Below, in pieces: positions 12,796 to 28,495 of a DNA stretch of 64,000 nt (the first letter of the stretch is position 1; each line of letters opens with the position of its first letter). Source of the stretch: Escherichia coli (GTDB lineage Bacteria; Pseudomonadota; Gammaproteobacteria; Enterobacterales; Enterobacteriaceae); assembly GCF_003991155.1 (NCBI RefSeq), contig NZ_CP031293.1; one strand, given 5' to 3'. The notes under the pieces were generated by a model, which worked only from the letters and a program-made list of their open reading frames with translations, was not told the origin of the DNA and did not search any database. Position numbers and translations under genes: made by a program.

Positions 12796-13143
12796 TTACG
12801 AATTACTGCGGCGCTGTTGCTTTTCCGCATGTACGCGTTTCACAATCTTATAAATCCATTGCAGCGTCAGATTATATTTCTTCGCTAATTCGGCGTAGTT
12901 GCGCCCATCGCACTCGCTATAGATTTGGTAGTCACGCTCCGATGCTCGTCCGGAGATCCCCTTAGGGAAATAAATGCTTTGTCCGCCCCAGTTACGCATC
13001 ATTCGGTCGGCAATGGCAAAGCCCACATTTTCTGCCGATGAACTGTCGAGATTGATGCTTTCAATCAGAACTTGCGATGCATGAAAAGCCAGGTCGTTAA
13101 TGATCTCCGGTGTCCGGGCCATCTCTTTTGATTTTCGTATCAT
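12796..13143 (-). CDS. Mor/C-family (phage Mu middle/late) transcriptional activator
   Basis: 115-aa ORF; C-terminus GGQSIYFPKG...RDYQIYSECDGRNYAELAKKYNLTLQWIYKIVKR matches the conserved Mor/C HTH region (Mu Mor GGGQVYIPRG...RIWNDFNGRNVSELTTRYGVTFNTVYKAIRR); GGAG RBS 7 nt upstream. Confidence 0.8.
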   Translation of the reverse strand: MIRKSKEMARTPEIINDLAFHASQVLIESINLDSSSAENVGFAIADRMMRNWGGQSIYFPKGISGRASERDYQIYSECDGRNYAELAKKYNLTLQWIYKIVKRVHAEKQQRRSNS

Positions 13144-13364: not shown

Positions 13365-13384
13365 TACTGTATACACATACAGTA
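13365..13384. promoter_or_regulatory. LexA operator (SOS box) TACTGTATACACATACAGTA
   Basis: Matches consensus TACTGTATATATATACAGTA at 18/20 with both CTG/CAG half-sites perfect; flanked by inverted TTTTACAC / GTGTAAAA; overlaps a candidate plus-strand sigma-70 promoter (TTTACA-16-TACAGT). Confidence 0.7.
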
Positions 13385-13680
13385 TTATTTTTACTTGTAG
13401 TGTAAAAAGATCGTTTCCCTCACAGTCGCTGACTTTCTTAAACAAACTTTAAAAATCAAATAACTACTGACTATTCCTACGATTCACCATCATCTTTTCC
13501 CTGCATAATGACGCGCTTATTCGCGAGGTCACCTTTTGCTCTTTAATTGCTGAGTGGATTTATTAGCGGGCATGTTCATTTATAGAGAATCTATTTTTTA
13601 AACTTATTTATTAAAGCTTTTTTCATTCTTCACTGGCGGGTTCTGGCGACACTAAACGCTCACTTATCAGGAGATACCGT

Positions 13681-13968
13681 ATGAAAAAAGTCACTCTTCC
13701 CCGGCTTTCCGGTTGGCTGGTCGCTTCCGTCGCGCTGTTTGTCGTGATCGGCTGGACCTCTTCAGCACAAATCCCGGTCGTCATTTATAAACTAAGCCTG
13801 GTTTCGCTTTCCGCGGTGCTGGGATACTGGCTCGATCGCAGTTTGTTCCCCTGGGCACGGCCTGACTCTTTTTGCCCCTGGAAGGAACCGCGTTGCTGCG
13901 CGGCGGCAATGATTCGCCGGGCTATCATCGTTGCTGCCGTCTGCCTTTCCGTCGCGTTAGGGCTATAG
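13681..13968 (+). CDS. Putative holin-like small membrane protein (three predicted hydrophobic segments)
   Basis: 95-aa ORF with hydrophobic helices, immediately upstream of the endolysin gene; function inferred from position. Confidence 0.45.
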   Translation: MKKVTLPRLSGWLVASVALFVVIGWTSSAQIPVVIYKLSLVSLSAVLGYWLDRSLFPWARPDSFCPWKEPRCCAAAMIRRAIIVAAVCLSVALGL

Positions 13969-13970
13969 TG

Positions 13971-14576
13971 ATGTGGCTGAAATATATCGCGTCTATGATT
14001 ATTTTCGTTCTTTTCCCACTCAACGCCTCTGAACCGCCGAGAGCCTCTCTGGCATGGCGAAACGAACTAATTCGTACAGCTCGAGAAGTCTGGGGGCTGA
14101 ATGCCCCAGTGGCCGACTTTGCCGGGCAATTACACCAGGAGTCCGCCTGGCAGCCAATGGTACGTTCCCCCGTTGGCGCACAAGGTATGGCGCAATTTAT
14201 GCCTGCTACAGCGACATGGATAAGCCAGTTGTATCCACAATTGCGTGAAAACAAACCGTATAACCCAACCTGGGCGATTCGCGCGCTGGTGCAATATGAC
14301 CAGCATTTGTGGAAAAACATCTCTGCGAAAAATGATTGTCAGCGTATGGCGTTTACCCTAAGCGCCTATAACGGCGGTCAGGGGTGGGTTAACCGGGATA
14401 AAAAACTGGCTGCATCCAAAGGGTTAGATGCCACTAGCTGGTTTGGTCATGTTGAGCAAGTCAACGCCGGGCGCAGCGCCACGAACTGGCGAGAAAATCG
14501 TCGCTATCCAAAGATGATCCTCTATCAACATGCCGCCCGCTATTTACTCTGGGGACAGGCAAGCTGTCTTCATTAA
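13971..14576 (+). CDS. Endolysin, lytic transglycosylase (SLT domain) with hydrophobic N-terminus (signal or SAR-like)
   Basis: Motifs HQESAW and GAQGMAQFMPATA typical of the SLT catalytic region; start taken at the internal ATG at 13971 just after the upstream ORF stop. Confidence 0.8.
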   Translation: MWLKYIASMIIFVLFPLNASEPPRASLAWRNELIRTAREVWGLNAPVADFAGQLHQESAWQPMVRSPVGAQGMAQFMPATATWISQLYPQLRENKPYNPTWAIRALVQYDQHLWKNISAKNDCQRMAFTLSAYNGGQGWVNRDKKLAASKGLDATSWFGHVEQVNAGRSATNWRENRRYPKMILYQHAARYLLWGQASCLH

Positions 14577-14588
14577 TCAGAGGGGCCG

Positions 14589-14903
14589 ATGAAACTCAGT
14601 ATCGATTTTTGGGAAGTGATCTCCCTTATGCTTTCCTTCGTTGGATTAATGTTTGCTGCCGGAAAACTGCTGTTAGCACAAATTGAAAAACGACTTAATG
14701 AGCGTTTTGAATCTCTGGAAAACGCGCGCCGGGAATCAGAAACAAGTTGGTCGAAACTGGAAAGAGAATTTCTCGAATTTCGTGCCGAGCTTCCGCTGCA
14801 TTATGTCCGCAGAGAAGATTATCTTCGTGGGCAAGCAGTATTAGAAGCGAAGCTGGATGCCTTATATAGCAAAATCGAGCTGTTACAACGTGGCAGTTAT
14901 TGA
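14589..14903 (+). CDS. Putative spanin-like lysis accessory protein (N-terminal TM helix plus coiled coil)
   Basis: 104-aa ORF, N-terminal hydrophobic segment followed by charged coiled-coil-like sequence; position after endolysin. Confidence 0.4.
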   Translation: MKLSIDFWEVISLMLSFVGLMFAAGKLLLAQIEKRLNERFESLENARRESETSWSKLEREFLEFRAELPLHYVRREDYLRGQAVLEAKLDALYSKIELLQRGSY

Positions 14904-14904
14904 A

Positions 14905-14941
14905 AAATCCCCACCCTTATGTAAGGGTGGGGATTTTTTTA
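14905..14941 (+). terminator. Strong rho-independent terminator (ATCCCCACCCTTatgtAAGGGTGGGGAT plus T7) between lysis cassette and tail genes
   Basis: 12-bp perfect stem followed by TTTTTTT; A-run on the other side makes it bidirectional. Confidence 0.7.
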
Positions 14942-15047
14942 ACCATTCAATTTTTTCTCTAAATCACATTAAAAGATTCTTCACCTTCGCTGCTTCAGAA
15001 TACATTTCAACGATAACGAAGTGAGCGGTAATTAAGGTACAGCCTAT

Positions 15048-15503
15048 ATGGAAATTTTATCTGTAATGAATTCTGTTGTGACCAGATTACGTGAACACAA
15101 CTCCGAAATGGATATATTTATTTCATCTAAGGATGCCCAGAAATATATTCCACAGACACAACGAGTTGCAGTGATTATTAATTATAGCGGTTCTGTCTTT
15201 GCTACGCCCGAAAGCAGTAATGCCATCGTGCAACAGCAAATACTCCGCTTAACCGCCACCGTTATTGTTGGCAAAAATTGTGATGCATTAAACGCACTTG
15301 ATCACATACGCAGCGCATTGGGTGGCCTTCAGCTTCCTGATTGCGATCGTCTTCTTTGGCTTGAAAAAGAAATTAATACGGGTGAGAGCGGCGGTTTCTG
15401 CCGCTACATCCTGGAAATGGCGACCAGCTCGCTATTTATCGCTGAACAGGAAAGCACGGATCTTCCCCTGCTTACGGAAGTTAACTACGAGGAAACTGAA
15501 TGA
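15048..15503 (+). CDS. Hypothetical tail-associated protein (first gene of tail operon; possibly tail completion/terminator)
   Basis: 151-aa ORF translationally coupled (ATGA) to the next ORF; role inferred only from position upstream of sheath. Confidence 0.5.
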   Translation: MEILSVMNSVVTRLREHNSEMDIFISSKDAQKYIPQTQRVAVIINYSGSVFATPESSNAIVQQQILRLTATVIVGKNCDALNALDHIRSALGGLQLPDCDRLLWLEKEINTGESGGFCRYILEMATSSLFIAEQESTDLPLLTEVNYEETE

Positions 15504-15697
15504 AATACATCTACAACGGCCCAGCAAGCGGCGTCACCCTTGCCGATGGACAAGAAATCTTATTGTGGCCGAACAGTGAAATTGATCTGCCAGAAGACAA
15601 CGAGTGGGTCATGACCATGATTGCCCGCAATCATCTGACTCCTGTCATCACTCAGGAAGAACAAAATAACGTAGAGGAAATTGTACATGGCAGCTAA
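15500..15697 (+). CDS. Small hypothetical protein (65 aa) preceding tail sheath
   Basis: ORF overlapping neighbours at both ends; typical of small conserved proteins upstream of Mu-like sheath genes. Confidence 0.4.
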   Translation: MKYIYNGPASGVTLADGQEILLWPNSEIDLPEDNEWVMTMIARNHLTPVITQEEQNNVEEIVHGS

Positions 15698-17111
15698 TTA
15701 TCTGCACGGTGTAGAAACTATTGAAATTGAAACCGGCCCGCGTCCGGTTAAAGCGGTAAAATCCGCCGTCATCGCTTTAATCGGTACAGCCCCCTGCGGT
15801 CCGGTAAATAAACCAACATTATGCCTTTCTGAAAGCGATGCTGCGCAGTTTGGCTCGACTCAGGCTAACTTTACGATCCCACAGGCACTGAAGGCAATTT
15901 ATGACCACGGTGCCGGTACGGTGGTGGTGATTAACGTGCTGGATCCGGCAAAACATGGCTCCAACATCAGCAATGAGAGTATCACTTTTGATGCTAACAA
16001 CCAGGCGAAGCTCGCTCACCGCAATGTGCGTAACGTGGTACTAAAGCCCTCTTCATCAAATTCATCAACCTTTAACACCGCAGCATTTAGCGTAGATGAA
16101 CAAACAGGCATAATTACCCGTAAAGGAGCCGACATTCCTCCTGGTGCGAAAGTTTGTGCCTATTATTCCTGGTGCGACCCTACAAAGGTCACCGCAGCCG
16201 ATATTATCGGTACCGTAAATACCGCAGGCGACCGCACGGGGATGAAACTGCTACAGGACACCTATAACCTGTATGGTTTCTACGCCAAAATCCTGCTTGC
16301 TCCCGTGTTCTGTACGCAAAAATCAGTAACTACAGAGCTGATTGCACAAGCGGAAAAACTTGGTGCGATTACCTACATTGATGCCCCGATTGGGACGACA
16401 TTCCAGCAGGTATTGGCAGGACGCGGTTCGCAAGGGGCTATCAACTTCAACACCAGCTCTGATCGTGCGCGTTTATGTTACCCACACGTCAAAGTTTACG
16501 ATGGCATCACTAACCAGGAAGTTCTCGAACCGCTCTCTTCGCGCGCTGCCGGGCTACGTGCCAAAGTAGACCTCGAAAAAGGTTTCTGGTGGAGCAACTC
16601 AAACCAAGAAATTCAGGGTATTACCGGTATTGAACGTTCGCTTTCCGCAATGATTGATGATCCACAAAGCGAAGTGAATCAGCTAAACGAAAACGGCATT
16701 ACCACTATTTTCAATAGTTACGGCTCTGGTCTGCGCTTGTGGGGCAACCGCACTGCAGCGTGGCCTACCGTGACCCATATGCGTAACTTTGAAAACGTCC
16801 GCCGGACAGGCGATGTAATTAATGAGTCAATCCGTTATTTCAGTCAGCAGTATATTGATATGCCGATTAATCAGGCGCTGATTGATGCCCTGACCGAATC
16901 GGTAAATACCTGGGGCCGTAAGCTGATTGCCGACGGCGCACTGCTTGGCTTTGAATGCTGGTACGATCCGGCGCGAAATTCACCGACTGAACTCAGCGCT
17001 GGGCATTTATTGCTGAGCTATAAATTCACCCCACCGCCGCCGCTGGAACGTCTGACGTTTGAAACTGAAATTACTTCTGAATATTTAGTCTCTCTGGAGA
17101 GCAATAGCTAA
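15687..17111 (+). CDS. Contractile phage tail sheath protein
   Basis: About 474-aa ORF starting MAANYLHGVETIEIETGPRPV...; size and N-terminal motif typical of Mu gpL / P2 FI-type sheath proteins; RBS GAGGAAA upstream of the ATG at 15687. Confidence 0.85.
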   Translation: MAANYLHGVETIEIETGPRPVKAVKSAVIALIGTAPCGPVNKPTLCLSESDAAQFGSTQANFTIPQALKAIYDHGAGTVVVINVLDPAKHGSNISNESITFDANNQAKLAHRNVRNVVLKPSSSNSSTFNTAAFSVDEQTGIITRKGADIPPGAKVCAYYSWCDPTKVTAADIIGTVNTAGDRTGMKLLQDTYNLYGFYAKILLAPVFCTQKSVTTELIAQAEKLGAITYIDAPIGTTFQQVLAGRGSQGAINFNTSSDRARLCYPHVKVYDGITNQEVLEPLSSRAAGLRAKVDLEKGFWWSNSNQEIQGITGIERSLSAMIDDPQSEVNQLNENGITTIFNSYGSGLRLWGNRTAAWPTVTHMRNFENVRRTGDVINESIRYFSQQYIDMPINQALIDALTESVNTWGRKLIADGALLGFECWYDPARNSPTELSAGHLLLSYKFTPPPPLERLTFETEITSEYLVSLESNS

Positions 17112-17635
17112 TGGCTGGAAAAATTCAAATTAACCGTATTACCAACGCCAATATTTATCTCGATGGTAATAACCTTTTAGGTCGTGCAACCGAAATTAAA
17201 TTGCCGGATGTCAGTTTAATTATGCAGGAGCATAAAGCACTGGGCATGGTGGGTAAAATCGAACTCCCGGCGGGTTTCGATAAACTGGAGGGCGAAATTA
17301 AATGGAACTCCTTCTATCAGGACGTAATGCGTAAAACGGCAAACCCGTGGCAGGCGGTTGCATTACAGTGCCGCTCCAGTATTGATTGCTATAACTCCCA
17401 GGGGAAAGCGAATCAATTAGCGCTAGTGACACATTTAACCGTGATGTTTAAAAAGAATCCACTGGGCACATTTAAACAGAATGAAAACCCGGAATTCAGC
17501 AGCGCCTTTGGTTGCACTTATATTAAACAAGTAGTTGATGGTGAAACGCTGCTTGAACTTGATTATATGGCCAATATTTTCCGGGTTAATGGTGTGGATC
17601 AATTAAGTACCTATCGCAATAACATCGGTGGCTAA
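17111..17635 (+). CDS. Phage tail tube protein
   Basis: 174-aa ORF directly following sheath (TAATG overlap); sheath-tube order conserved in contractile tails. Confidence 0.8.
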   Translation: MAGKIQINRITNANIYLDGNNLLGRATEIKLPDVSLIMQEHKALGMVGKIELPAGFDKLEGEIKWNSFYQDVMRKTANPWQAVALQCRSSIDCYNSQGKANQLALVTHLTVMFKKNPLGTFKQNENPEFSSAFGCTYIKQVVDGETLLELDYMANIFRVNGVDQLSTYRNNIGG

Positions 17636-17685
17636 GTTATTCGGGGCTACGGCCCCGAACTTTGCAAAATAAATAAGGACACAAA

Positions 17686-18003
17686 ATGAAAGAACATTAT
17701 ATCTTACAGTTCCCGTTTACTTCAGCGGCGGGAGACGTAATTAACACTCTGCAATTACGTCGCCTGAAAGTAAAAGATATGCGCAACGCGCGCCGGATCA
17801 GCGAAAAACCTGAAGAGTGGGATGAACCGCTAATGGCGGCAATGACCGGACTGGTGCCAGAAGATTTAGCTGAAATGGATTTGCTGGATTACCAGGCATT
17901 GCAGAAACGATTTCAATCCATGCTTAGCGTGGCTACAGAATCCGCCACTGTTATGGCAAGCGATGGCGTTACTGGCGAGATGGTTTCGCTTTCCACCCAG
18001 TGA
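17686..18003 (+). CDS. Putative tail assembly chaperone (gpE-like position)
   Basis: 105-aa acidic ORF between tube and tape measure genes. Confidence 0.5.
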   Translation: MKEHYILQFPFTSAAGDVINTLQLRRLKVKDMRNARRISEKPEEWDEPLMAAMTGLVPEDLAEMDLLDYQALQKRFQSMLSVATESATVMASDGVTGEMVSLSTQ

Positions 18004-18192
18004 GATAGACGCCCTTACCGTCGATGACTTTAGCAACTGGCTGGATGAAGCCAGCGCCCAAATAAAAATCGAATATGACTCGCAGACCTGATGTCTGCGA
18101 GTTTCCCAAGCCCGTCAGGTTTATTTCTTCCCTGCCCCTTTTTTTAGAAAAATAACCAGCGGGCCATTATCAATATTTAAAGAGAAACAATT

Positions 18193-20568
18193 TTGGCCAA
18201 CGATATTATTACCCAGCTTCAGGCGCGTAATGAGACGTTGACGCAGGCAATAGCCCGTTACGGCTCACTCAACGCCAGAACATTGTTAACTCTCTCTACT
18301 CAGCAGGCGACAGTTATCAAACTAACGCAGCAGCTTGCCGATTCCGCTCTCCGCCTGGAGGAAAATAGCCGCAGCCGCGCTAATCTGATGGAGAAAACCC
18401 AAACATTTGCCGGGCAATTTAGCAAAGTATTCAATGTTGAAGCCCCCGACTGGAAGTTGCCGTATGAGTTTCAGGACAACATGGTCAATATGGCGACCAA
18501 AGGTGGGATGAATGCTACAACCCGCGAGACGCTCAGCCTTAATCTGCGCGACTGGAGCATGGATTTTAACCAGCAGCAGACCACCTTACAGAACGCAGCC
18601 CAAACGCTGATCGAAGGCAATTTGTCGTCGATACAGGATCTCAACCGTTATATGCCGGAGATCGCCAAAGCTGCCACCGCCACGCGCGAAAGTGCTGAAA
18701 CATGGGCGAATGCCGCGCTCGCAACCCATGATCGACTGAATATTGCCCCGGAAAATTTCCACGCCGCGCAAAACATGATGTACGGCATTAGCAAAAGCGG
18801 TGGGCCTGCCATTGCTGAACAAACGCAGTGGATAGAGAAATTTGCAGGTAAAACCGGCGCTCAGGGTCTGGAAGGTATGGCTGAACTGACCGCCACCATG
18901 CAGATCGCCATGAAAAACGGGGCCAGCGCCAGTGCGGCGGCGGAGAATTTCGACCACTTTCTGCAAACCACCTTTTCGAAAAAAACCGATTACTGGTTCG
19001 TCAGCCAGGGCGTTGATCTGCAAGGCTCTCTGCTTGAGCATCAGCAAAACGGTATGGGTGTTAGCGAAGCCATGACTCATATCGTGCAAATGCAGCTTGA
19101 GAAGATGAATCCGGCGATCCTCGACACCTTCAAACGCACCATGCAGATCGAAGATTTATCTGCCCGCAGCAATGCGCTGCAATCGATGGTGACGCAGTTT
19201 AATCTGGGGGAAATGTTCGGCGATGCGCAAACAGTGGAATTCCTGGCCCCTATGCTGGCGAATATGGAGGAATATCGCCAGTTAAAAGCCTCTGCCATGC
19301 AAGCCACCAGCAAGAATCTGATTGATGCCGACTTTTCTGCGCAAATGGCCTCGCCCATTGAACAGACTAAAGCGTTACAGCTGGCGTTAAATGATTTATG
19401 GCTCAGCATTGGCTTGCAATTAATGCCGCTGATTGGCGAGCTGGCACAAAGCCTTACGCCGGTTATTCGTCAGTTCAGCGCCTGGCTACGTGAGCACCCG
19501 ACACTGGTGCAAAACATCGCGAAAATCGTCGGGGCGATTTGGCTGTTTAACGGTGCGCTGAATGTTTTAAAGCTGGGCGCGAACCTCATCACCTCGCCGT
19601 TTATTCGTCTGGTCGATATCTTCCTGAAAGTCAAGGCAAGTCTGGCGCTCACAGGCGGGGCAAGTAAGATGCTATCAGCGGTTAAGTCATTGGGTGGCGG
19701 CGCAAAATGGCTAACGCAACTGCTTGGTCGTGGCCTGATTGGAACATTGAAACTGGTTGGTCGGACCGTTCTCTCACTAGGCCGGGTGCTACTGATGAAT
19801 CCCATTGGTCTGGTCATCACTGCGATTGCGGGCGCTGCTTATCTGATTTATCGCAACTGGGAGCCTATCTCCAGGTTCTTTTCGACCATCTGGCAACGTA
19901 TCACCACGGCCTTTGACGGCGGCATTGCAGGAATTTGTCGGTTGATTCTCGACTGGTCACCGCTGGAGTTGTTCTATAGCGCCTTTTCCAGTGTGATGAA
20001 TTGGTTTGGTGTCGAGATGCCTGCAAGTTTTAGCGAGTTCGGCAGCAATCTTCTGGGCAGTCTGGTTGACGGCATAATGAATGCCTTCCCCGCTCTGAAA
20101 GGCATTATTGATCAGGTAAAAAACGCCATCCCAGACTGGCTAAAAACCACGATGGGTATTAGTACAGAAGGATCGGCTACAGCTATTACAAGCACGACTA
20201 ATACCGCATCCGTCTCCCCCGCGACCGTTGTTCCAGGCGTTGCCGGTGCGATTTTAACGCCGCCGGTGGGCAAACAACTCGCGCCATCCGGCAAAACGGC
20301 TACGCCGTCATCGGCGCCAGCGGCAAAAAATACAGCCGCCAAACCCGTATCTGCCTCTTTACCTGGTAAATCCGTAACCAAAGCGGCGACGCTACCTTCC
20401 CGTTCCTCAGGAAAAGTTCAGGTGAATTTTTCGCCACAAATTACCGTGCAGGGTAACGGACAAAACACCACTAAAGAGATTCAGAACGTGTTGACGATGA
20501 GTAAACGCGAACTGGAAAGAATGATTAACGATGTAATGGCGCAGCAGCAGCGCCGGGGGTATGCCTAA
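18193..20568 (+). CDS. Tail tape measure protein
   Basis: 791-aa ORF, alpha-helical and Ala/Gln-rich with central hydrophobic segments; position after chaperone; start codon uncertain (TTG at 18193 in track). Confidence 0.8.
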   Translation: MANDIITQLQARNETLTQAIARYGSLNARTLLTLSTQQATVIKLTQQLADSALRLEENSRSRANLMEKTQTFAGQFSKVFNVEAPDWKLPYEFQDNMVNMATKGGMNATTRETLSLNLRDWSMDFNQQQTTLQNAAQTLIEGNLSSIQDLNRYMPEIAKAATATRESAETWANAALATHDRLNIAPENFHAAQNMMYGISKSGGPAIAEQTQWIEKFAGKTGAQGLEGMAELTATMQIAMKNGASASAAAENFDHFLQTTFSKKTDYWFVSQGVDLQGSLLEHQQNGMGVSEAMTHIVQMQLEKMNPAILDTFKRTMQIEDLSARSNALQSMVTQFNLGEMFGDAQTVEFLAPMLANMEEYRQLKASAMQATSKNLIDADFSAQMASPIEQTKALQLALNDLWLSIGLQLMPLIGELAQSLTPVIRQFSAWLREHPTLVQNIAKIVGAIWLFNGALNVLKLGANLITSPFIRLVDIFLKVKASLALTGGASKMLSAVKSLGGGAKWLTQLLGRGLIGTLKLVGRTVLSLGRVLLMNPIGLVITAIAGAAYLIYRNWEPISRFFSTIWQRITTAFDGGIAGICRLILDWSPLELFYSAFSSVMNWFGVEMPASFSEFGSNLLGSLVDGIMNAFPALKGIIDQVKNAIPDWLKTTMGISTEGSATAITSTTNTASVSPATVVPGVAGAILTPPVGKQLAPSGKTATPSSAPAAKNTAAKPVSASLPGKSVTKAATLPSRSSGKVQVNFSPQITVQGNGQNTTKEIQNVLTMSKRELERMINDVMAQQQRRGYA

Positions 20569-21521
20569 TGTATGCCGTTTTAGGAGAGATTGAATTTAAG
20601 GTTGTCACATTCTGGGACGGCTTTAAAAGCACAATGGGCGTGGATTACGCCACACATGCCCGTATAGAAGGCAAACCCGGCGTGCAGTTTATTGGCGATA
20701 AGCTGGATATGCTGGCGCTGGAATTTTCCCTGCACAGCCAGTTTTGCCAGCCCACAACAGAGCTGAACCGACTGCGTGAAGCCATGCTTGCTCACAAGGC
20801 GATGGCACTGGTATTTGGCAATGGCGATTATCGCGGCTGGTTTGTGATTACGGAGCTAACCGCCACCCACCAGCACACCGATCCCTGGGGCAATGTGATT
20901 GCCCAAAACGGAACGATGTCGCTCCAGGAGTACACCGGCGATCCTAAAAATCCACTTTTACCTCCGGCGATTACCACCCAGGAGCCCAACATCGAGGAAA
21001 AGGCGAGCGATTTTCCCGACAAGGTGGAGTCCTGGTTTGATCAGATATTAAACGCCATTGAAGAAGGTATGCGTAAGGCCAAAGAGATGCTGGATGAACT
21101 GACACAATCCATTGAAGATATTAAAAAAACGGTGGCAAAAGTGAAAGCAATGATTAAAGAGGCCAAAGCGTTAAAAGAAAAGTGTGAAAAGATAATTACG
21201 TCATTGAAAAAGACAATCGACGCCATCGAAACCCTGTTTAAACAGCCAATGGATCTGCAAACGCTGGCAGGCCTACCAAAAGCGTTGTCGGCGCAGATTA
21301 AAGCTTTACTGGGTAACATGCCAGGTATCCGGGACTGCGCCAATGACGCCAGTACGCTGGTTGACCATGCTCAGGCGCTTTTCGACGACATTACCAGCGA
21401 CATCGCCGAAGCGACGTTCGATAAAGCCACGTCGTTGGTTGAGCAGGCACGTACAACGGTACAACAAACCACTCCCGCAGTGAGCCAGCTTGCTGCCGTA
21501 ACCATTACCAGGAGCTGGTAA
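20568..21521 (+). CDS. Tail protein, P2 gpU-like N-terminal domain with coiled-coil C-terminal extension
   Basis: N-terminal region (ARIEGKPGVQFIG...WFVITELTATHQHT) resembles the P2 gpU / Mu N N-terminal family; overlaps TMP stop. Confidence 0.7.
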   Translation: MYAVLGEIEFKVVTFWDGFKSTMGVDYATHARIEGKPGVQFIGDKLDMLALEFSLHSQFCQPTTELNRLREAMLAHKAMALVFGNGDYRGWFVITELTATHQHTDPWGNVIAQNGTMSLQEYTGDPKNPLLPPAITTQEPNIEEKASDFPDKVESWFDQILNAIEEGMRKAKEMLDELTQSIEDIKKTVAKVKAMIKEAKALKEKCEKIITSLKKTIDAIETLFKQPMDLQTLAGLPKALSAQIKALLGNMPGIRDCANDASTLVDHAQALFDDITSDIAEATFDKATSLVEQARTTVQQTTPAVSQLAAVTITRSW

Positions 21522-21730
21522 TGCGATACCTTGAACATATCACCACCGATGGCGAACGCTGGGATAACCTGGCATGGCATTACTACGGTGATGCGCTGGC
21601 TTATGAACGCATAATCGCCGCCAATCCACATGTAGCCATTTACCCGGTACTGCCTTCCGGTATTCAGCTCATTATTCCGGTCATTTCCGTTAATAAAACC
21701 TTATCGGAGATCCCACCATGGCTGAGATGA
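21521..21730 (+). CDS. Tail protein X-like (small LysM-like tail protein)
   Basis: 69-aa ORF with AANP...LP.G pattern as in P2 gpX; located between U-like and D-like genes as in R-type pyocin clusters. Confidence 0.7.
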   Translation: MRYLEHITTDGERWDNLAWHYYGDALAYERIIAANPHVAIYPVLPSGIQLIIPVISVNKTLSEIPPWLR

Positions 21731-22758
21731 GCGTAACTGGTGGCGTCTTTGCCACACTCACGCCCATTTTTACCCTCTGGTATGGGCATAAAGATATCAC
21801 TTATGACATCACACCCTATGTCACCAGCATCAGTTACCACGACAGCATCAAAAACGAGTCGGATACCATCGCAATTACACTGGATGACACAGATGGACGC
21901 TGGATAAAAGAGTGGTATCCCGGCAAAGGCGATACGCTGGCGCTGCATATAGGTTATCAGGGGGAAAAGCTGCTCGATTGTGGCCAGTATATTATTGATA
22001 AAATTGATATTTCAGCGCCACCTTCCACGGTAAATATTGATGGCATCGCCACTTCCGTCAATCAGGCGCTGCGCACCCGTAACAGCCAGGGCTTTGAAGA
22101 AACGACGCTTTCGGCGATCGCCAGCCGTATTGCCCAAACGCACGGTCTGAAACTGGTGGGCAAAATCGAGTCGCTCACCATCGACCGGGTAACGCAGTAT
22201 GGTGAAACCGATGTCGGATTTCTCAAACGTCTGGCCAGTGAATATGGTTATGCCGTAAAAGTGACGACAAAAGAGCTGATTTTTTCACATTTACCCACGC
22301 TGCGCTGCCTGACGCCTGTGAAAAAGATCGATCGCAAAGAGGTTTCTCATTTTACCTTCAAAGACACCATTAACCGGATCTACAAGAACGCCACCGTACA
22401 GCATCAAAATAGTAAGAAAAAAGAACTGGTTATCTACACTCACAACAGCCAGCAAAAACCATCTGTCCGTGGAGTCGGCACTAGTGCCGACACGCTAAAA
22501 CTGAACAGTCGGGCGACGGACGTTGGCGCAGCACAGGCAAAGGCTAACGCTGCACTCGACAGCCACAACGAATATCAGCAAACCGGAACGCTCACAATGA
22601 TGGGCTGCCCGGAACTGACGGCGGGCAATAAAATTGAACTGACCGATTTTGGCGTGATTTCCGGTCAGTGGCTGATTGATAAATCTACTCACAGTTTTGT
22701 GCGCAGCGGCTATACCACTGAAATCGACGTGTCACGCGGGCCAGCGACCAGCCAGTAA
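21718..22758 (+). CDS. Phage late control D-like / Mu gpP-like tail (baseplate hub) protein
   Basis: 346-aa ORF in the conserved U-X-D position. Confidence 0.75.
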   Translation: MAEMSVTGGVFATLTPIFTLWYGHKDITYDITPYVTSISYHDSIKNESDTIAITLDDTDGRWIKEWYPGKGDTLALHIGYQGEKLLDCGQYIIDKIDISAPPSTVNIDGIATSVNQALRTRNSQGFEETTLSAIASRIAQTHGLKLVGKIESLTIDRVTQYGETDVGFLKRLASEYGYAVKVTTKELIFSHLPTLRCLTPVKKIDRKEVSHFTFKDTINRIYKNATVQHQNSKKKELVIYTHNSQQKPSVRGVGTSADTLKLNSRATDVGAAQAKANAALDSHNEYQQTGTLTMMGCPELTAGNKIELTDFGVISGQWLIDKSTHSFVRSGYTTEIDVSRGPATSQ

Positions 22759-22767
22759 GGAGGAAAT

Positions 22768-23469
22768 ATGAAAGGAGTAACCCGTCAAACGGGGATTATC
22801 AGCGATATTGACGAAACCAGTGTTCGGGTACGGGTCACTCTACCAGAGTGTGACAATCTGAAGAGCAACTGGCTTGCGGTACTTCAACGCAATTCCCAGG
22901 ACAATAAAGACTACTGGCTACCGGATATGGGCGAGCAAGTGGAAGTTCTGCTGGACGATAACGGTGAAGATGGCGTGGTGCTGGGTGCCGTTTATTCTAC
23001 GGTTGACACCGCGCCTGTAGCCTCGCGCGACAAACGTTACGTCCAGTTTTCTGATGGCGCAGCGTTTGAATATGACCGCAGCACGCACCAGCTGACGATT
23101 AACGGCGGTATCGAGAAAATCGTGATTGAGGTTATCGACAGCACCCGCCTGACATCGCCCAACGTTGAGATTAAAGCCCAACACGTCACCGTGACTTCCG
23201 ATACCGTCGATGTTAAAGCGACCGATGTCAGCATCGACGCCACTAAGGTCGAGGTTAAAGCAGCAGCAGTGACGGTAGATGCGCCCATGAGCACCTTTAC
23301 TGGCAACGTCACGGTAATGAAAAAACTCACCTGGCTTGGCGGGATGGCAGGAAGTGGAGGCATCGGTAACGCAGCCACGATAACCGGCAATGTCAACGTG
23401 ATCGGCAACGTTCAGGCCAGCGGCGCATTGCAGGACAGCGGTGGCAACTCCAACCACCATTCACACTGA
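22768..23469 (+). CDS. Baseplate assembly protein V-like (central spike)
   Basis: 233-aa ORF; N-terminal OB-fold-like region and C-terminal repetitive beta region (VTVTSDTVDVKATDVSIDATKVEVKAAAVTVDA) typical of gpV spikes. Confidence 0.8.
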   Translation: MKGVTRQTGIISDIDETSVRVRVTLPECDNLKSNWLAVLQRNSQDNKDYWLPDMGEQVEVLLDDNGEDGVVLGAVYSTVDTAPVASRDKRYVQFSDGAAFEYDRSTHQLTINGGIEKIVIEVIDSTRLTSPNVEIKAQHVTVTSDTVDVKATDVSIDATKVEVKAAAVTVDAPMSTFTGNVTVMKKLTWLGGMAGSGGIGNAATITGNVNVIGNVQASGALQDSGGNSNHHSH

Positions 23470-23472
23470 CTT

Positions 23473-23505
23473 TTAACCCGCCTGATGGCGGGTTTTCTCT
23501 TTTTA
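23473..23505 (+). terminator. Hairpin (AACCCGCCtgatGGCGGGTT) plus T-rich tract after the spike gene; possible partial intra-operon terminator
   Basis: Perfect 8-bp stem followed by TTCTCTTTTT. Confidence 0.5.
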
Positions 23506-23567
23506 ATCAATCAGTTTTCTAAATCGCTTTAATATCTCCACAGCCCGTTCAGGGCGAAAATACCCTC

Positions 23568-23927
23568 ATGAACACAAAAACACGCCCCTCAACGCTGCAC
23601 TGGCAACCGGCCTTGCAGCGGCCTGAAGAATACGTCTGCGGGCTGGATGATATTCACCAGGCAATACACATCATTCTGCGTACACCGCGCGGCAGTGATC
23701 CCCACAGACCGCTGTTTGGCAGCAACTTGTGGCACTACATCGATTACCCCATCGAGCGGGCTATCCCGCATGTGGTACGGGAGTCGGTGGAAGCCATCCG
23801 CCAGTGGGAACCGCGCTGTCGGTTGCTGAAGGTGACACCAGTAATCGACGGCGAACATCTGACGTTACGTGTGCAATGGCGCGCCGCTGACGGCGTTATC
23901 AACTCAACGGAGGTGTTATGGCGATAG
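23568..23927 (+). CDS. Baseplate wedge protein gpW / gp25-like
   Basis: 119-aa ORF; PRGSDPHRPLFGSNLWHYIDYP resembles the GPW_gp25 family core. Confidence 0.75.
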   Translation: MNTKTRPSTLHWQPALQRPEEYVCGLDDIHQAIHIILRTPRGSDPHRPLFGSNLWHYIDYPIERAIPHVVRESVEAIRQWEPRCRLLKVTPVIDGEHLTLRVQWRAADGVINSTEVLWR

Positions 23928-25033
23928 CCGAACCCAATTTTATTGACCGCGATCCTGCGCAAATTACCAGTGAGATGATTGCGCAATACGAAGATGCCAG
24001 TGGTAAAAAACTCTATCCGGCACAGGCTGAGCGGTTGCTCATCGACCTGTTTGCCTATCGTGAAAACCTTGTACGCATCGCCATTCAGGAAGCGGCGAAA
24101 CAAAACCTGGTCGCGTATTCCCGCGCGCCAATGCTGGATTATTTAGGGGAGTTGGTGGGAGTTCACCGTTTGCCTGCGCAGCCTGCAAAAACGACGTTGC
24201 AGTTTTCGGTCGTTAGTGCGTATCCCGGCAATATCCTGATTCCCCAGGGGACGCGGGCCAGTGCCTCTGATAGCGTGATGTTCGCCACCGATGAAGATGT
24301 TCTGCTTCCGGCCAGGAGTTTGCATATCGCCGTTCCTGCCACCAGCCTCGCAGCAGGTGAACAGGGTAACGGCTGGCAGCCTGCACAAATTAGCGCACTG
24401 GTCGACAGGATTGGTCATTATGACATCAACGTAACCAACCTGACTGCGTCAACGGGCGGCTGCGGTGAAGAGAGCGATGACGCATTGCGCCAGCGTATCC
24501 AACTGGCACCAGAAAGCTTTAGTAATGCGGGCAGCTATGGTGCCTACCGCTTTCATACGCTTTCTGTTAGCCAGTCGATTATTGACGTTGCAGTACTGGG
24601 GCCGGACGAGGGATTGCCAGAAGGCTGCGTGGAGATCTACCCGCTAACCCTGAATGGTCTACCCGGCACGGAGTTGCTGGCGCAGATTGAACAAGAAGTC
24701 AGCAAGGAGAAAAAACGACCGCTGACCGACAAAGTGAGTGCGAAATGCGCTCTTCGAGTGCCGTATGAGATCCGTGCGCAGCTAATGCTGTTTACCACCG
24801 CCGATCAGGAGACAACGCTGGCTGCGGCGCGTAAAGCGATTAGCCTCTGGACGCAACAGCGGCAGAAACATCTGGGGCAGGACATTGTGCCAAACCAGAT
24901 AATCAAAGTGTTACAGGTCGATGGCGTCTATGACGTTGCGCTGAATATGCCTACAAAACGTATTTTGCAGGCGCATGAATGGGCGGAATGCACTGCAATA
25001 GACGTCACGATTGCCGGAGTCAGCGATGGATAA
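23918..25033 (+). CDS. Baseplate protein J-like
   Basis: 371-aa ORF after gpW with GGAGG RBS; W-J-I order. Confidence 0.8.
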   Translation: MAIAEPNFIDRDPAQITSEMIAQYEDASGKKLYPAQAERLLIDLFAYRENLVRIAIQEAAKQNLVAYSRAPMLDYLGELVGVHRLPAQPAKTTLQFSVVSAYPGNILIPQGTRASASDSVMFATDEDVLLPARSLHIAVPATSLAAGEQGNGWQPAQISALVDRIGHYDINVTNLTASTGGCGEESDDALRQRIQLAPESFSNAGSYGAYRFHTLSVSQSIIDVAVLGPDEGLPEGCVEIYPLTLNGLPGTELLAQIEQEVSKEKKRPLTDKVSAKCALRVPYEIRAQLMLFTTADQETTLAAARKAISLWTQQRQKHLGQDIVPNQIIKVLQVDGVYDVALNMPTKRILQAHEWAECTAIDVTIAGVSDG

Positions 25034-25742
25034 ATTGCTGCCACCGCCGCCGCTTGCCAGCGATGAGCGTTTTTCGATTCTGGCAAACATCGCCGCCGAG
25101 CGTTTTGCCCAACTCGATCTGACGGCGTTGATGGTTTATCTGGTCGACCTGGTTGATGCTTCGGCATTACCAGCCCTTGCAGAACAATTTCACGTTCAGG
25201 GGCTGGAAGGTTGGTTATTTACCACCGATGAGCGGGAGAAACGCGAGTTAATTAAACAAGCCATTGAACTGCATAAATATAAAGGAACAATTTGGGCGGT
25301 ACGGCGAGTGCTGGAAATACTTTCCTTACCCGGAACTATTTCAGAATGGTTTGAATATGGGGGAAGGGCTTATTTTTTTAAGGTAAATATTACACTAGAG
25401 GAAAAAGGATTAAATGAAGATGAATTCAATGCACTTATCACATTAATTCATGAATATAAAAATGTTCGTTCAAAGCTGGAAAGCATTGTTATTTGGCTTA
25501 TTAATCGAAGCCCAATACCAGTTATTGGCAGCGCCATGCAAGGAGGGGAAGTCATTACAGTATTGCCTCCTGTTGCAGAAAGCCTCAGCCAGTCATCAGG
25601 AATATTTTTAGCGACGGGTTATTGTGTGGAGGAATATATCCAACTACTACCTTATCAACCCGATCGCCTTACACAATCCCAACCGATGAAGGTCGGCACA
25701 GGATACTGGAGCACCGAAATTATGTCTGTATATCCGGAGTAA
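25026..25742 (+). CDS. Tail protein I-like (baseplate)
   Basis: About 238-aa ORF from ATG 25026 overlapping J stop; position before tail fiber. Confidence 0.7.
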
Positions 25743-25744
25743 TA

Positions 25745-27325: not shown

Positions 27326-28029
27326 ATACTTTTACCTTTTCTGATGAAGCTCAAATACTAACTGTATATAATTTTTCACAAGACTCCCAAGAATATATCG
27401 GTGAGTCTGATGCATACATTGCACCTAATACAGGCTTGCCAAATTATTGCACATTAATTTCACCTCCCGAAAAGGCTCCTGGTTTTACTCCAGTGTGGGA
27501 GAATGAAACATGGAGACTTATTGAAGATCATCGAGGCCAAACTGTTTATAACAAAGTTGATGGTAGCCAGCTTATTATTCAAGAATTGGGCCAATTACCT
27601 GAAAATGTAACAGTCATTTCCCCGACAGGTTCTTTTGAACGTTGGGATGGTGAAAAATGGCAACCATCTATAACCGATGCTAAAGAGGCGAAATACTCTG
27701 CAATCAAAAATCAACGCGATGCCATCACAACCGATTACATCATCATCAACAACCATCACTTCCACAGTGATACAAATAGCCGTATCCAACAGCTTTCACT
27801 CACAAAAATGGGAGCGGAGAAAAAAATTCCGCCAGGGTTAATGTGGAAAACTAAAAATAATGGTCTGATTGAGTTAACCAACGAAATCGCTGCCCAGTTT
27901 GAATCGGTCACCATGGATCACGATATGCGCTTGTTCGCAAACGCCCAGCGTCATATCGCGGCGGTGGAAGCACTGGACGATATTCAGGCGGTGCTCGACT
28001 ACGATTATTCAACAGGCTGGCAACCATGA
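27322..28029 (+). CDS. Tail fiber assembly (chaperone) protein
   Basis: 235-aa ORF overlapping the fiber stop (ATGA); lower GC than surrounding genes, typical of host-range modules. Confidence 0.75.
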
Positions 28030-28481
28030 GTAAAACCACTGTCTGGCTCGCTTGTTATAAGGGCCGAACAGAGCACCGTGGTATTGCCCGACTGGCTGAC
28101 TGGCTTACCCGTAAAATCACACGCGGTAGTTATTCCCACTGTGAATTAGCCGTTAAGCATGGTGAAAAGAGATACCTTTGTTACTCCGCATCACTGCGCG
28201 ATCGCGGTGTACGCGGAAAAATAATGCCATTGCCAGCGGATAAGTGGGATATGCTGCCGCTCCAGGCCAGCCTTCAGGATGTGGAAACTTTTTTCCGTAA
28301 ACATGATGGCAAAAAATATGACTGGCGCGGAGCATTAGGAATTATTATCGGTAATAAAGAACAGCGCGATCGCCTGTTTTGCAGTGAATTTTGTGCTGAA
28401 TTTCTGCAACTGAAGGAAAGCTGGCGCTATTCTCCAAACCACTTGTACGCTTTAGTCAGTAGCTGGCAATATCAGCCGTAA
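28026..28481 (+). CDS. Hypothetical protein (151 aa), Cys/His-containing, translationally coupled to tail fiber assembly gene
   Basis: Intact ORF with ATGA overlap to upstream gene; no confident family assignment. Confidence 0.5.
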   Translation: MSKTTVWLACYKGRTEHRGIARLADWLTRKITRGSYSHCELAVKHGEKRYLCYSASLRDRGVRGKIMPLPADKWDMLPLQASLQDVETFFRKHDGKKYDWRGALGIIIGNKEQRDRLFCSEFCAEFLQLKESWRYSPNHLYALVSSWQYQP

Positions 28482-28495
28482 AATAACGCCGGGCA

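What the first reader, a model, noticed from the sequence alone, without database searches (positions are those of the whole stretch)
14905..23505. Strong terminator separating lysis cassette from tail genes, and a second hairpin after the spike gene
A perfect 12-bp GC-rich hairpin with T7 tract lies between the spanin-like gene and the first tail gene, implying lysis and structural genes are separate transcription units (or coupled by antitermination). A weaker hairpin plus T-tract follows the spike gene (23473-23505) inside the tail operon. This partitioning could set lysis timing or tail-protein stoichiometry.
Basis: seen in the sequence. Interest (0 to 1): 0.25.

Follow-up and report, generated by a model that had tools for sequence, protein, structure and literature searches.

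The report
Terminators bounding three tail-cluster operons
Two RNA hairpins in a head-less phage-tail gene cluster of E. coli look like ordinary transcription stop signals, and each is followed by its own activator-type promoter, so the cluster is probably read as three separate units, much as in phage Mu.

Summary
T1 (14903-14940) is the best compact terminator-like structure on either strand of the window. T2 (23475-23504) ranks sixth of 42.

Both are conserved in orthologous clusters of E. coli, Salmonella, Phytobacter and Superficieibacter. T1 shows compensatory base changes. T2 has an invariant stem and variable loops.

It is a TAAAnn-N3-TTAAWA site with a -10-like hexamer 21 nt further on. 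The same module stands at equivalent gene boundaries in complete BcepMu-like phages. A scoring matrix (PWM) trained only on distant phages ranks these two sites first and second in the window.

The locus also encodes a Mor/C-family activator next to a conserved LexA box.

So the cluster most likely has three activator-dependent late units:
- lysis genes;
- tail terminator through spike;
- baseplate wedge through fibres.

T1 and T2 end the first two. Antitermination is not supported. T2 marks a boundary between two tail operons rather than sitting inside one. The "spanin-like" gene is a homologue of BcepMu gp25, not Rz.

This is ordinary phage-type operon architecture. No transcript data were available.

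The parts
12796..13143 (-). Mor/C-family late transcriptional activator, divergent from the lysis and tail genes and adjacent to lysC
   Evidence: Pfam PF08765 Mor, E = 7e-38. phrog_532 'late transcriptional activator'. RefSeq calls it a 'Mor transcription activator family protein'.
13365..13384 (.). Near-consensus LexA (SOS) box TACTGTATACACATACAGTA with the flanking block CATTTTACAC
   Evidence: CTG-N10-CAG plus its flank is conserved in the window and in L001-L004 and L038, within an otherwise diverged spacer. It overlaps a + strand TTTACA-16-TACAGT promoter-like site. Which direction it controls is unresolved.
13597..13653 (+). Promoter-like module upstream of the holin gene: TTAAAC-TTATTTA-TTAAAG (13597-13618) and the -10-like GACACT (13648-13653)
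   Evidence: The block is conserved in five genera. Its spacing differs from the other two modules, with the site centre near -53.
13681..14903 (+). Late unit 1 (lysis): holin 13681-13968, SLT transglycosylase 13971-14576, and a 104-aa membrane/coiled-coil protein of the BcepMu gp25 family 14589-14903
   Evidence: Pfam Holin_2-3 and SLT. tblastn to BcepMu gp25. phrog_462. No Rz/Rz1 and no embedded lipobox ORF.
14903..14940 (+). T1: intrinsic-terminator-like hairpin. 12-bp perfect stem 14907-14918 / 14923-14934, loop ATGT, T7 run 14934-14940, with an A5/T5 extension
   Evidence: -28.5 kcal/mol, z = -5.9. (rank 1 of 42). (present in 14 of 18 distinct orthologous spacers). (compensatory changes at 3 pairs).
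14960..15001 (+). P_tail1 promoter-like module: TAAATC-ACA-TTAAAA (14960-14974) and the -10-like CAGAAT (14996-15001). Inferred transcription start near 15008.
   Evidence: the composite pattern occurs only here and at 23520; 0 in 100 shuffles. (rank 2 of 127,918 positions with a PWM trained on distant phages). Homologous to the site upstream of the capsid-protease gene in Klebsiella phage KP12 and BcepMu.
15048..23469 (+). Late unit 2 (tail): Gp37-family protein, 65-aa ORF, sheath, tube, assembly chaperone, tape measure, gpU-like, X, D-like hub, V-like spike
   Evidence: Pfam hits. RefSeq annotation of the identical locus in strain 1517k.
23475..23504 (+). T2: intrinsic-terminator-like hairpin. 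AACCCGCC / TGAT / GGCGGGTT followed by TTCTCTTTTT.
   Evidence: -16.8 kcal/mol, z = -4.4. (rank 6 of 42). (present in all 16 distinct orthologous spacers that lack an insertion; invariant stem, variable loop).
23520..23570 (+). P_W promoter-like module: TAAATC-GCT-TTAATA (23520-23534) and the -10-like GAAAAT (23556-23561). The W start codon at 23568 lies exactly 6 nt after the hexamer, which predicts a leaderless mRNA.
   Evidence: site-to-ATG distance of 42-43 in nearly all of 31 diverse loci. (rank 1). (no Shine-Dalgarno match before W).
23568..28481 (+). Late unit 3 (baseplate and fibres): W/gp25-like, J, I, tail fibre, fibre-assembly protein, 151-aa ORF
   Evidence: Pfam hits. RefSeq annotation.
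28486..28508 (-). T3: GC-rich hairpin at the convergent end of the cluster. It has a T-tract only on the - strand, where it serves the RlaP-like gene 28496-29296.
   Evidence: (rank 4). On the + strand it is followed by ATTACC, so termination of the tail transcript here is uncertain.

Best explanation
**Context.** The window is E. coli chromosome. Between lysC and a nucleotidyltransferase/slipin gene pair it carries a 15.7-kb head-less derivative of a BcepMu-like (Mu-type head, P2-type tail) phage. The cluster holds:
- a Mor/C-family activator;
- a small lysis cassette;
- a complete contractile-tail gene set.

**What the hairpins do.** T1 and T2 are Rho-independent terminators. They end the first and second of three late transcription units.

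**What follows each hairpin.** About 20 nt downstream lies a promoter of the Mu late type:
- a two-half-site element TAAAnn-N3-TTAAWA centred near -43;
- no -35 hexamer;
- a -10-like nAnnAT hexamer.

I infer that the cluster's own Mor/C-family protein activates it.

**The three units.**
1. Holin, SLT and gp25-like gene, ended by T1.
2. Gp37 through the spike gene, started from P_tail1 and ended by T2.
3. W through the fibre genes, started from P_W, probably as a leaderless mRNA beginning at the AUG.

**Shown here:** the hairpins, their conservation and covariation, the promoter modules with their fixed geometry and cross-phage conservation, and the activator gene.

**Inferred:** that termination actually occurs, that the Mor-like protein binds the element, the start sites, and that a conserved LexA box places the system under SOS control.

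**Likely role of the terminators.** They insulate the three units. Each is then expressed at the level set by its own promoter, and RNA polymerase arriving from upstream does not run across the next promoter.
For: **Hairpins**
- Anatomy and energies.
- Rank 1 and rank 6 among 42 compact terminator candidates in 128 kb of both strands.

**T1 conservation**
- A GC hairpin plus T-tract is present in 14 of 18 distinct orthologous spacers.
- 82.7% of cells pair, against 41-55% when the partner column is slid.
- Double-sided changes occur at three pairs: CG/UA, GC/AU and GC/UG/CG.
- 0 of 500 shuffles reach the covariation score.

**T2 conservation**
- It is present in all 16 distinct spacers that lack an insertion.
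- The stem is invariant and eight different loop sequences occur.
- The junction is uninterrupted in all 194 E. coli genomes that carry it.

**Promoter modules**
- The same motif and the same 21-nt gap to an nAnnAT hexamer occur upstream of W in about 30 diverse loci. They also occur upstream of the holin and capsid-protease genes of BcepMu and Klebsiella phage KP12.
- The composite pattern occurs only at 14960 and 23520 in the window, with 0 in 100 shuffles.
- A PWM trained only on nine distant-phage W promoters ranks 23520 first (20.7 bits) and 14960 second (17.7 bits) of 127,918 positions. The next best scores 13.4.

**Activator and geometry**
- Activator gene: Pfam Mor, E = 7e-38.
- Mu C binds a 16-bp imperfect dyad centred at -43.5 at promoters that have -10 but no -35 hexamers (PMC2582627).
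- The Mu record itself annotates predicted terminators directly before Plys and PI.

**Other support**
- In complete phages gp37 overlaps the preceding head gene, with no spacer. The T1 plus P_tail1 junction therefore appears only in the head-less clusters examined.
- The head-less cluster of Samsonia also has two strong terminators before the same motif.
Against: - No transcript 5' or 3' ends were available for any carrier of the cluster. Searches for Salmonella data found nothing.
- T1 is missing or reduced to a weak AT-rich hairpin in 4 of 18 lineages that keep the promoter module.
- Complete BcepMu-like phages have the W promoter module but no T2. The terminators are therefore dispensable for the promoter system.
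- The motif does not resemble the Mu C or Mor sites. Binding by the Mor-like protein is an inference from family membership and geometry.
- The -10-like hexamers are weak (4 of 6 matches).
- The holin promoter module has a different spacing.
- The composite pattern was derived partly from these same sites, so its statistic is inflated. One search is the independent test.
- The simple consensus scan shows no overall excess of terminator-like sites.
Confidence: 0.68

Rival explanations
1. One long operon with attenuation or antitermination. A single upstream promoter (for example the LexA-controlled one) drives lysis and tail genes. T1 and T2 are partial terminators that step expression down, or a factor lets polymerase read through them.
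For: - A conserved LexA box overlaps a + strand promoter-like site (TTTACA-16-TACAGT) that points toward the holin gene.
- All genes lie on one strand with small gaps.
- Lineages without T1 and phages without T2 must allow read-through.
Against: - No Q-, N- or put-like antitermination element was found. The only regulator is a Mor/C-family activator.
- Each hairpin is followed by a promoter module conserved out to Burkholderia phages.
- T1 (12-17 bp perfect stem plus U7) is built like a near-complete terminator. Tail genes need far more product than lysis genes, which is the wrong direction for a step-down.
- W lacks a Shine-Dalgarno sequence, so it would be poorly translated from a read-through transcript.
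Confidence: 0.12
2. The hairpins act mainly as 3'-end stabilisers or processing barriers for the upstream mRNAs, or as scars or cargo of small mobile elements at insertion-prone junctions. They would have little role in termination.
For: - Both junctions attract insertions.
- Next to T1, what look like ERIC-type repeats are inserted in L031 and L002.
- At T2, REP-like repeats sit in the loop in Phytobacter, and a 3.3-kb gtrABC operon flanked by REP-like repeats replaces T2 in S. enterica.
- T2 is absent from complete phages.
Against: - T1 keeps pairing through compensatory changes in three clades.
- T2 keeps an invariant stem and T-tract with free loops across at least four genera. This argues for selection on a hairpin-plus-U-tract, which is the terminator signature.
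- Neither hairpin matches an Rfam family.
- A stabiliser role is compatible with termination and does not exclude it.
Confidence: 0.12
3. The palindromes act on DNA as protein-binding or recombination sites, for example an operator for the activator or the junction left by the head-gene deletion.
For: - T1 is a perfect DNA palindrome lying exactly at the junction created by loss of the head genes.
- Mor/C proteins bind dyad-symmetric DNA (PMC2582627).
Against: - The sequence of the T1 stem differs between clades while pairing is kept, which is not expected for a specific operator.
- The centre of T1 lies about 85 bp upstream of the inferred start, outside the usual activator position.
- The element conserved between distant phages is the TAAAnn-N3-TTAAWA site, not the hairpins.
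Confidence: 0.05

Closest known systems
Phage Mu late transcription (Plys, PI, PP and Pmom, activated by C; Pm activated by Mor)
   Same: - A Mor/C-family activator gene is present.
- There are several late units on one strand.
- The promoters have a -10 hexamer, no -35 hexamer, and a two-half-site element centred about 43 bp upstream (PMC2582627; geometry here).
- In the Mu record, predicted terminators sit directly before Plys and PI, and tail genes are split between two promoters, PI and PP.
   Different: - The site sequence (TAAAnn-N3-TTAAWA) is unlike Mu's ATAACCCC-type C sites.
- Only one Mor/C gene is present, not a Mor-then-C cascade.
- The second tail promoter lies between spike and wedge genes with a terminator before it. 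In Mu, PP lies inside gene N with none.
- There are no head, transposition or replication genes.
BcepMu-like phages (Burkholderia phage BcepMu, Klebsiella phage KP12)
   Same: - Homologous holin, SLT, gp25, Gp37 and P2-type tail genes occur in the same order.
- The same promoter-like module stands before the holin gene and before W.
- The window's P_tail1 module matches the one before their capsid-protease gene.
   Different: - They are complete phages with transposase, terminase, portal and capsid genes and with Rz/Rz1.
- Their lysis genes run straight into the packaging genes.
- Gp37 overlaps the preceding head gene.
- No T2-type hairpin separates spike and W.
Phage P2 late operons (PF: FI-FII-E-T-U-D; PV: V-W-J-I-H-G; activator Ogr)
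   Same: - Homologous tail genes are split into a sheath/tube/tape-measure unit and a baseplate/fibre unit.
- Each unit has its own activator-dependent promoter.
- From memory, not checked here: the P2 gene V transcript is a classic leaderless mRNA. That would parallel the prediction for W.
   Different: - The break falls after V rather than before it.
- The activator family differs (zinc-finger Ogr against Mor/C), as does the site (TGT-N12-ACA, from memory).
- None of this was tested here.
R-type tailocins (for example R-pyocin of P. aeruginosa) and the Salmonella 'Def4' prophage remnant
   Same: - The cluster is a chromosomal tail-only gene set with a lysis cassette and a DNA-damage-type control element.
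- The Salmonella orthologue (STM4200-STM4219) is catalogued as the remnant Def4, which carries gtrAb/gtrBb.
   Different: - No particle production or killing has been shown for this cluster in any paper I could find.
- Regulation here would run through LexA and a Mor-type activator, not PrtR/PrtN.
- Spanin genes are missing.

Membership tests
Rho-independent (intrinsic) terminator | GC-rich stem of about 5-14 bp with a short loop of 3-8 nt | tested here: met
   T1: 12-bp perfect stem (7 GC pairs), loop of 4. T2: 8-bp stem (6 GC pairs), loop of 4.
Rho-independent (intrinsic) terminator | U-rich tract immediately 3' of the stem | tested here: met
   T1 has a T7 run. T2 has TTTTCTCTTTTT, counting the two stem T's. 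The tract is conserved in orthologues.
Rho-independent (intrinsic) terminator | Position just downstream of a stop codon, in the sense orientation, in an intergenic gap | tested here: met
   T1 starts at the stop codon at 14901-14903. T2 starts 6 nt after the stop at 23467-23469.
Rho-independent (intrinsic) terminator | Structure maintained by selection (covariation or conserved stem with a free loop) | tested here: met
   T1: three pairs with double-sided changes, and 0 of 500 shuffles reach the covariation score. T2: invariant stem with eight loop variants. The sample covers few independent clades.
Rho-independent (intrinsic) terminator | RNA 3' ends generated at the U-tract in vivo or in vitro | not testable with these tools
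   No Term-seq or RNA-seq data for a carrier strain could be found.
Mu-type Mor/C-dependent promoter | A Mor/C-family activator encoded by the element | tested here: met
   Pfam PF08765, E = 7e-38. phrog_532.
Mu-type Mor/C-dependent promoter | Recognisable -10 hexamer, no -35 hexamer, and a roughly 16-bp two-half-site element centred near -43.5 | tested here: met
   The site centre lies 31 nt before an nAnnAT hexamer at P_tail1 and P_W and in about 40 homologous sites. The Mu reference geometry is from PMC2582627. The start sites are inferred, not measured.
Mu-type Mor/C-dependent promoter | Sequence similarity of the site to the Mu C or Mor binding sites | tested here: not met
   The annotated Mu Plys, PI, PP, Pmom and Pm sequences share no evident similarity with TAAAnn-N3-TTAAWA. 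This was judged by eye only.
Mu-type Mor/C-dependent promoter | Activator-dependent transcription and a footprint on the site | not testable with these tools
   This needs reporter fusions and DNase I footprinting.
R-type tailocin | Complete contractile-tail gene set without capsid, packaging or replication genes | tested here: met
   Pfam hits and RefSeq annotation from lysC to the convergent host genes.
R-type tailocin | Dedicated lysis cassette for release | tested here: inconclusive
   Holin and an SLT transglycosylase are present. Rz/Rz1 spanins are absent, and no embedded lipoprotein ORF exists.
R-type tailocin | Particles produced on induction that kill related strains | not testable with these tools
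   No report was found. The ST131 'tailocin' paper describes a different, P2-like element.

The most novel reading that the evidence does not exclude
The lysC-linked cluster would be a domesticated tailocin derived from a BcepMu-type phage and controlled by SOS and the Mor-family activator. It would have been kept at one chromosomal site across several genera of Enterobacteriaceae.

- Both terminators would have been added after the head genes were lost, to insulate three activator-dependent units.
- The last unit would start as a leaderless mRNA. This feature would be conserved from E. coli to Burkholderia phages, because the -10 hexamer always sits 6 nt before the W start codon.
- The gap between T2 and the promoter would then have served as the landing site for the Salmonella gtrABC O-antigen-modification operon. 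That operon could protect the producer from its own particles.
Probability: 0.2. Interest if true: 0.55.

Novelty: new member of a known kind. Interest (0 to 1): 0.3.

Why it matters
**The two hairpins themselves are routine.** Terminators at operon boundaries of phage-derived clusters are expected, and Mu shows the same terminator-then-activated-promoter layout.

**The context is worth more than the hairpins.**
- The work gives a testable regulatory map for an uncharacterised tail-only cluster. It is present in 196 of 5,426 complete E. coli genomes and, as 'Def4', in Salmonella.
- The map comprises one LexA box, one Mor-type activator, three promoter modules and their terminators.
- It predicts a conserved leaderless start for the baseplate operon across a whole phage lineage.
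- It shows that the Salmonella gtr O-antigen-modification operon occupies exactly the terminator-promoter gap after the spike gene.

If the cluster makes killing particles, this map says which single gene and which short DNA elements to manipulate.

Tried and rejected
1. **Mu site similarity.** I looked by eye for similarity between the motif and the annotated Mu late and middle promoters and found none. Only the geometry matches.
2. **Mu releasin.** I tested whether the 104-aa 'spanin-like' protein resembles Mu gp25 releasin. BLASTP gave no alignment and Pfam gave no hit. It matches BcepMu gp25 and phrog_462.
3. **Antisense RNA ending at T1.** T1 also looks like a terminator on the - strand, and a - strand promoter-like site lies at 15082-15054. 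I considered a short antisense RNA over the Gp37 leader. I dropped it because that promoter-like sequence and the A-tract are not conserved in Salmonella or in other E. coli variants.
4. **Rfam.** No family matches inside the cluster.
5. **Homology of T1 with phage hairpins.** BcepMu and KP12 have a hairpin in the spacer before their capsid-protease gene (the counterpart of Mu's G-I spacer). I saw no sequence similarity to T1, so the origin of T1 is unresolved.
6. **Literature.**
   - Searches on STM locus tags returned only unrelated screens.
   - The tailocin searches returned nothing on this cluster.
   - The E. coli ST131 'tailocin' is a different P2-like prophage.
   - Salmonella transcriptome papers and supplements gave nothing for Def4.
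7. **Built-in consensus scan.** It is not enriched for terminators (26 against 21.4 expected) and missed T1 on the + strand. I replaced it with an energy-ranked scan.

Full report
**Observation**

Both hairpins exist at the stated places.

T1:
- It begins at the stop codon (14901-14903) of the 104-aa ORF.
- The stem ATCCCCACCCTT (14907-14918) pairs perfectly with AAGGGTGGGGAT (14923-14934) around the loop ATGT.
- Seven T follow. An upstream A5 run can extend the stem to about 17 bp.
- It folds at -28.5 kcal/mol, z = -5.9, with none of 200 shuffles as good.

T2:
- It lies 6 nt after the spike-gene stop: AACCCGCC / TGAT / GGCGGGTT followed by TTCTCTTTTT (23475-23504).
- It folds at -16.8 kcal/mol, z = -4.4.

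The built-in consensus scan is not enriched for terminator-like sites (26 found, 21.4 expected) and did not list T1 on the + strand. I therefore ranked all compact hairpins followed by a T-rich tail on both strands of the window.
- T1 is first, and second on the opposite strand.
- The hairpin at the convergent end of the cluster (28486-28508) is fourth.
- T2 is sixth of 42.
- T2 is the only strong + strand candidate inside the 13.5-kb tail region.

**What the locus is**

Gene content:
- The genes from 12796 to 28481 are a Mor-family activator on the minus strand, a holin, an SLT transglycosylase and a 104-aa membrane protein.
- A full contractile-tail set follows: Gp37-family protein, sheath, tube, chaperone, tape measure, gpU-like, X, D-like hub, V-like spike, W/gp25-like, J, I, fibre and fibre-assembly protein.
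- There are no capsid, packaging, transposition or integration genes.
- The flanks are host genes: yjbEFGH, pgi and lysC with its lysine riboswitch on one side, and a nucleotidyltransferase, a slipin and rluF-like genes on the other.

Distribution:
- The window is E. coli. The W protein is encoded identically in strain IAI39, and the region is 100% identical to strain 1517k.
- The cluster is in 196 of 5,426 complete E. coli genomes, always chromosomal.
- Orthologous clusters lie next to lysC in Salmonella (STM4200-STM4219), Phytobacter and Superficieibacter.
- In Salmonella it is catalogued as the prophage remnant Def4 (PMC5322425).

Relatives:
- The nearest complete phages are BcepMu-like (BcepMu, Klebsiella phage KP12).
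- The 'spanin-like' ORF is the homologue of BcepMu gp25, which follows the true Rz/Rz1 pair.
- Rz/Rz1 are absent here, and no lipobox ORF is embedded.

**Conservation of the hairpins**

I used loci from one scan of genome contigs and one scan of viral contigs and extracted both junctions from every orthologue.

T1:
- It is present as a GC hairpin plus T-tract in 14 of 18 distinct spacers.
- It is absent, or reduced to a weak AT-rich hairpin, in four.
- Its upper stem differs between clades while pairing is kept: CCCCACCCTT/AAGGGTGGGG, CCCCGtCG/CGcCGGGG and CCCTGC/GCAGGG.
- On a 12-sequence alignment, 82.7% of cells pair, against 41-55% with slid partners.
- Three pairs change on both sides, and no shuffle of 500 reaches the covariation score.
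- The window carries the strongest version.

T2:
- It is present in all 16 distinct spacers without an insertion, with an invariant stem and T-tract and eight different loops.
- It is uninterrupted in all 194 E. coli carriers.

In this sample T2 is thus better conserved than T1, although it is thermodynamically weaker.

**What follows each hairpin**

- About 20 nt after each T-tract lies a conserved element: TAAATC-ACA-TTAAAA at 14960 and TAAATC-GCT-TTAATA at 23520.
- Exactly 21 nt further on lies an nAnnAT hexamer: CAGAAT at 14996-15001 and GAAAAT at 23556-23561.
- The same module, with the same spacing, precedes W in about 30 diverse loci, from Enterobacterales to Burkholderia, Pandoraea, Iodobacter and Chromobacterium prophages.
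- It also precedes the holin and capsid-protease genes of BcepMu and KP12.
- Acidovorax loci carry their own sequence variant at the same three positions.
- The composite pattern occurs only at these two sites in the window. That test is partly circular.
- A PWM trained only on nine W promoters from distant phages ranks 23520 first and 14960 second among 127,918 positions: 20.7 and 17.7 bits, with the next at 13.4.

The element centre lies 31 nt before the hexamer, which places it near -43. This is the geometry described for Mu late promoters. They have a -10 hexamer, no -35 hexamer, and a 16-bp imperfect dyad bound by C centred at -43.5 (PMC2582627). The sequence of the site is unlike Mu's.

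**Origin of the T1 junction**

- In complete relatives, Gp37 overlaps the preceding head gene with no spacer.
- The lysis genes there run directly into the packaging genes.
- The window's P_tail1 module is nearly identical to the module before the KP12 capsid-protease gene. Compare TTTTTTCTAAAGCAGATTAAAAGC there with TTTTTTCTCTAAATCACATTAAAAGA here.
- The simplest reading is that loss of the head genes brought the head-operon promoter next to Gp37. A terminator now separates it from the lysis cassette.
- The head-less cluster of Samsonia has two strong terminators before the same motif.
- Mu shows the same layout: its record annotates predicted terminators directly before Plys and before PI.

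**The W boundary**

- In every relative, the W start codon lies exactly 6 nt after the -10-like hexamer, although the intervening bases differ freely.
- W lacks a Shine-Dalgarno match, whereas most other genes of the cluster have one.
- I infer that the W operon starts as a leaderless mRNA at its AUG.
- From memory, P2 gene V, which heads the homologous P2 baseplate operon, is a textbook leaderless mRNA. I could not verify this here.
- Complete phages have this promoter directly after the spike stop codon, without T2. T2 is therefore specific to the lysC-linked cluster.

**Model**

- The cluster has three late units, each with a Mor/C-type promoter: lysis, Gp37 through spike, and W through fibres. 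T1 and T2 end the first two.
- The hairpin at 28486-28508 has a T-tract only on the minus strand, so how the third unit ends is unclear.
- A near-consensus LexA box (13365-13384) with a flanking block is conserved across five genera in the Mor-holin spacer.
- That box suggests SOS control. Sequence alone does not say whether it governs a rightward promoter (TTTACA-16-TACAGT) or a leftward one toward Mor (-10 TAAAAT).
- The terminators probably insulate the units and keep polymerase from running across the next promoter. This part is inference.

**Rivals**

- A single operon with attenuation or antitermination is unlikely. No antiterminator is present, each hairpin is followed by a conserved promoter module, and W would be poorly translated from read-through RNA.
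- A pure role as stabiliser or insertion scar does not explain the conserved U-tracts and the covariation. Both junctions are nonetheless insertion-prone.
- A DNA-operator role does not fit the clade-specific stem sequences.

**Limits**

- No transcript-end data could be found.
- The number of independent clades is small.
- Binding of the Mor-like protein to the motif is inferred.
- The holin promoter module has a different spacing.

**Verdict**

The feature is an ordinary member of a known kind, set in a locus that deserves experimental attention for other reasons.

Noticed in passing
window 12796-28481: The whole region is a head-less BcepMu-type tail cluster inserted between lysC and a nucleotidyltransferase/slipin gene pair. 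It occurs in 196 of 5,426 complete E. coli genomes. It sits at the same site in Salmonella (Def4, STM4200-4219), Phytobacter and Superficieibacter. I found no report that it makes particles.
   Followed up: partly
window 13365-13384: A near-consensus LexA box with the flanking block CATTTTACAC is conserved in five genera within an otherwise diverged 537-nt spacer between the Mor-family gene and the holin gene. Whether it controls a promoter toward Mor or toward holin is unresolved.
   Followed up: partly
L001 15900-19226 (also L042-L045, L050; L041; L002 16340-16450): In S. enterica a 3.3-kb gtrABC O-antigen-modification operon sits exactly where T2 lies in E. coli, and T2 is lost. The operon is flanked by direct copies of a REP-like repeat. 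One Salmonella locus (L041) has only the repeat, and Phytobacter has REP-like sequence inside the T2 loop. I identified the repeats as REP-like by eye only.
   Followed up: partly
L031 1205-1335; L002 7700-7770: What looks like a full ERIC-type repeat (about 127 bp) is inserted between the stop codon and T1 in one E. coli-like locus. A shortened copy sits at T1 in Phytobacter, with a partial duplication of the hairpin arm. I identified these from memory of the consensus and did not test them.
   Followed up: no
window 14576-14903: The lysis cassette has a holin and an SLT transglycosylase but no Rz/Rz1 spanin pair. The 104-aa ORF has an N-terminal membrane helix plus a coiled coil and is the BcepMu gp25 homologue. 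It has no embedded lipoprotein ORF. How the outer membrane would be breached is unclear.
   Followed up: partly
window 23556-23570 and about 30 loci: The W (gp25-like) start codon always lies 6 nt after a -10-like hexamer, and W has no Shine-Dalgarno match. This predicts a leaderless mRNA, conserved from E. coli to Burkholderia phages.
   Followed up: partly
window 13440-13462: A further copy of the motif family, TTAAACAAACTTTAAAAATCAA, lies about 160 nt upstream of the holin promoter module. It is conserved in E. coli, Salmonella and Phytobacter but not in Superficieibacter.
   Followed up: no
window 23535-23555 and homologous sites: The spacer between the activator-type site and the -10-like hexamer of the W promoter is GC-rich. 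It often contains a short dyad (GCCCgttcaGGGC here) whose sequence changes between lineages.
   Followed up: no
L098 958-2178 and 4562-4875 (E. coli CREC-544): In some strains an ISL3-family element (ISKox3 or ISEc53) is inserted in the Mor-holin spacer. In CREC-544 the sheath gene is also annotated as frameshifted, so the cluster is decaying in part of the population.
   Followed up: no
window 28026-28481: The last gene of the cluster encodes a 151-aa protein. It has no Pfam hit and matches phrog_1128, which is labelled as a moron or auxiliary gene. Its function is unknown.
   Followed up: no
window 12796-13143: A 2026 paper reports that Mu C needs the beta sliding clamp and that Mor/C-family proteins carry clamp-binding motifs (PMC12867686). 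Here a Mor-family gene survives in a non-replicating element. I did not analyse whether it keeps such a motif (for example GQSIYF).
   Followed up: no
window 9061-9209, 11104-11300, 49064-49141, 54026-59028: Rfam hits outside the cluster are STnc430 sRNA, the lysC lysine riboswitch, naRNA4, and a complete rRNA operon with a tRNA and StyR-44.
   Followed up: no
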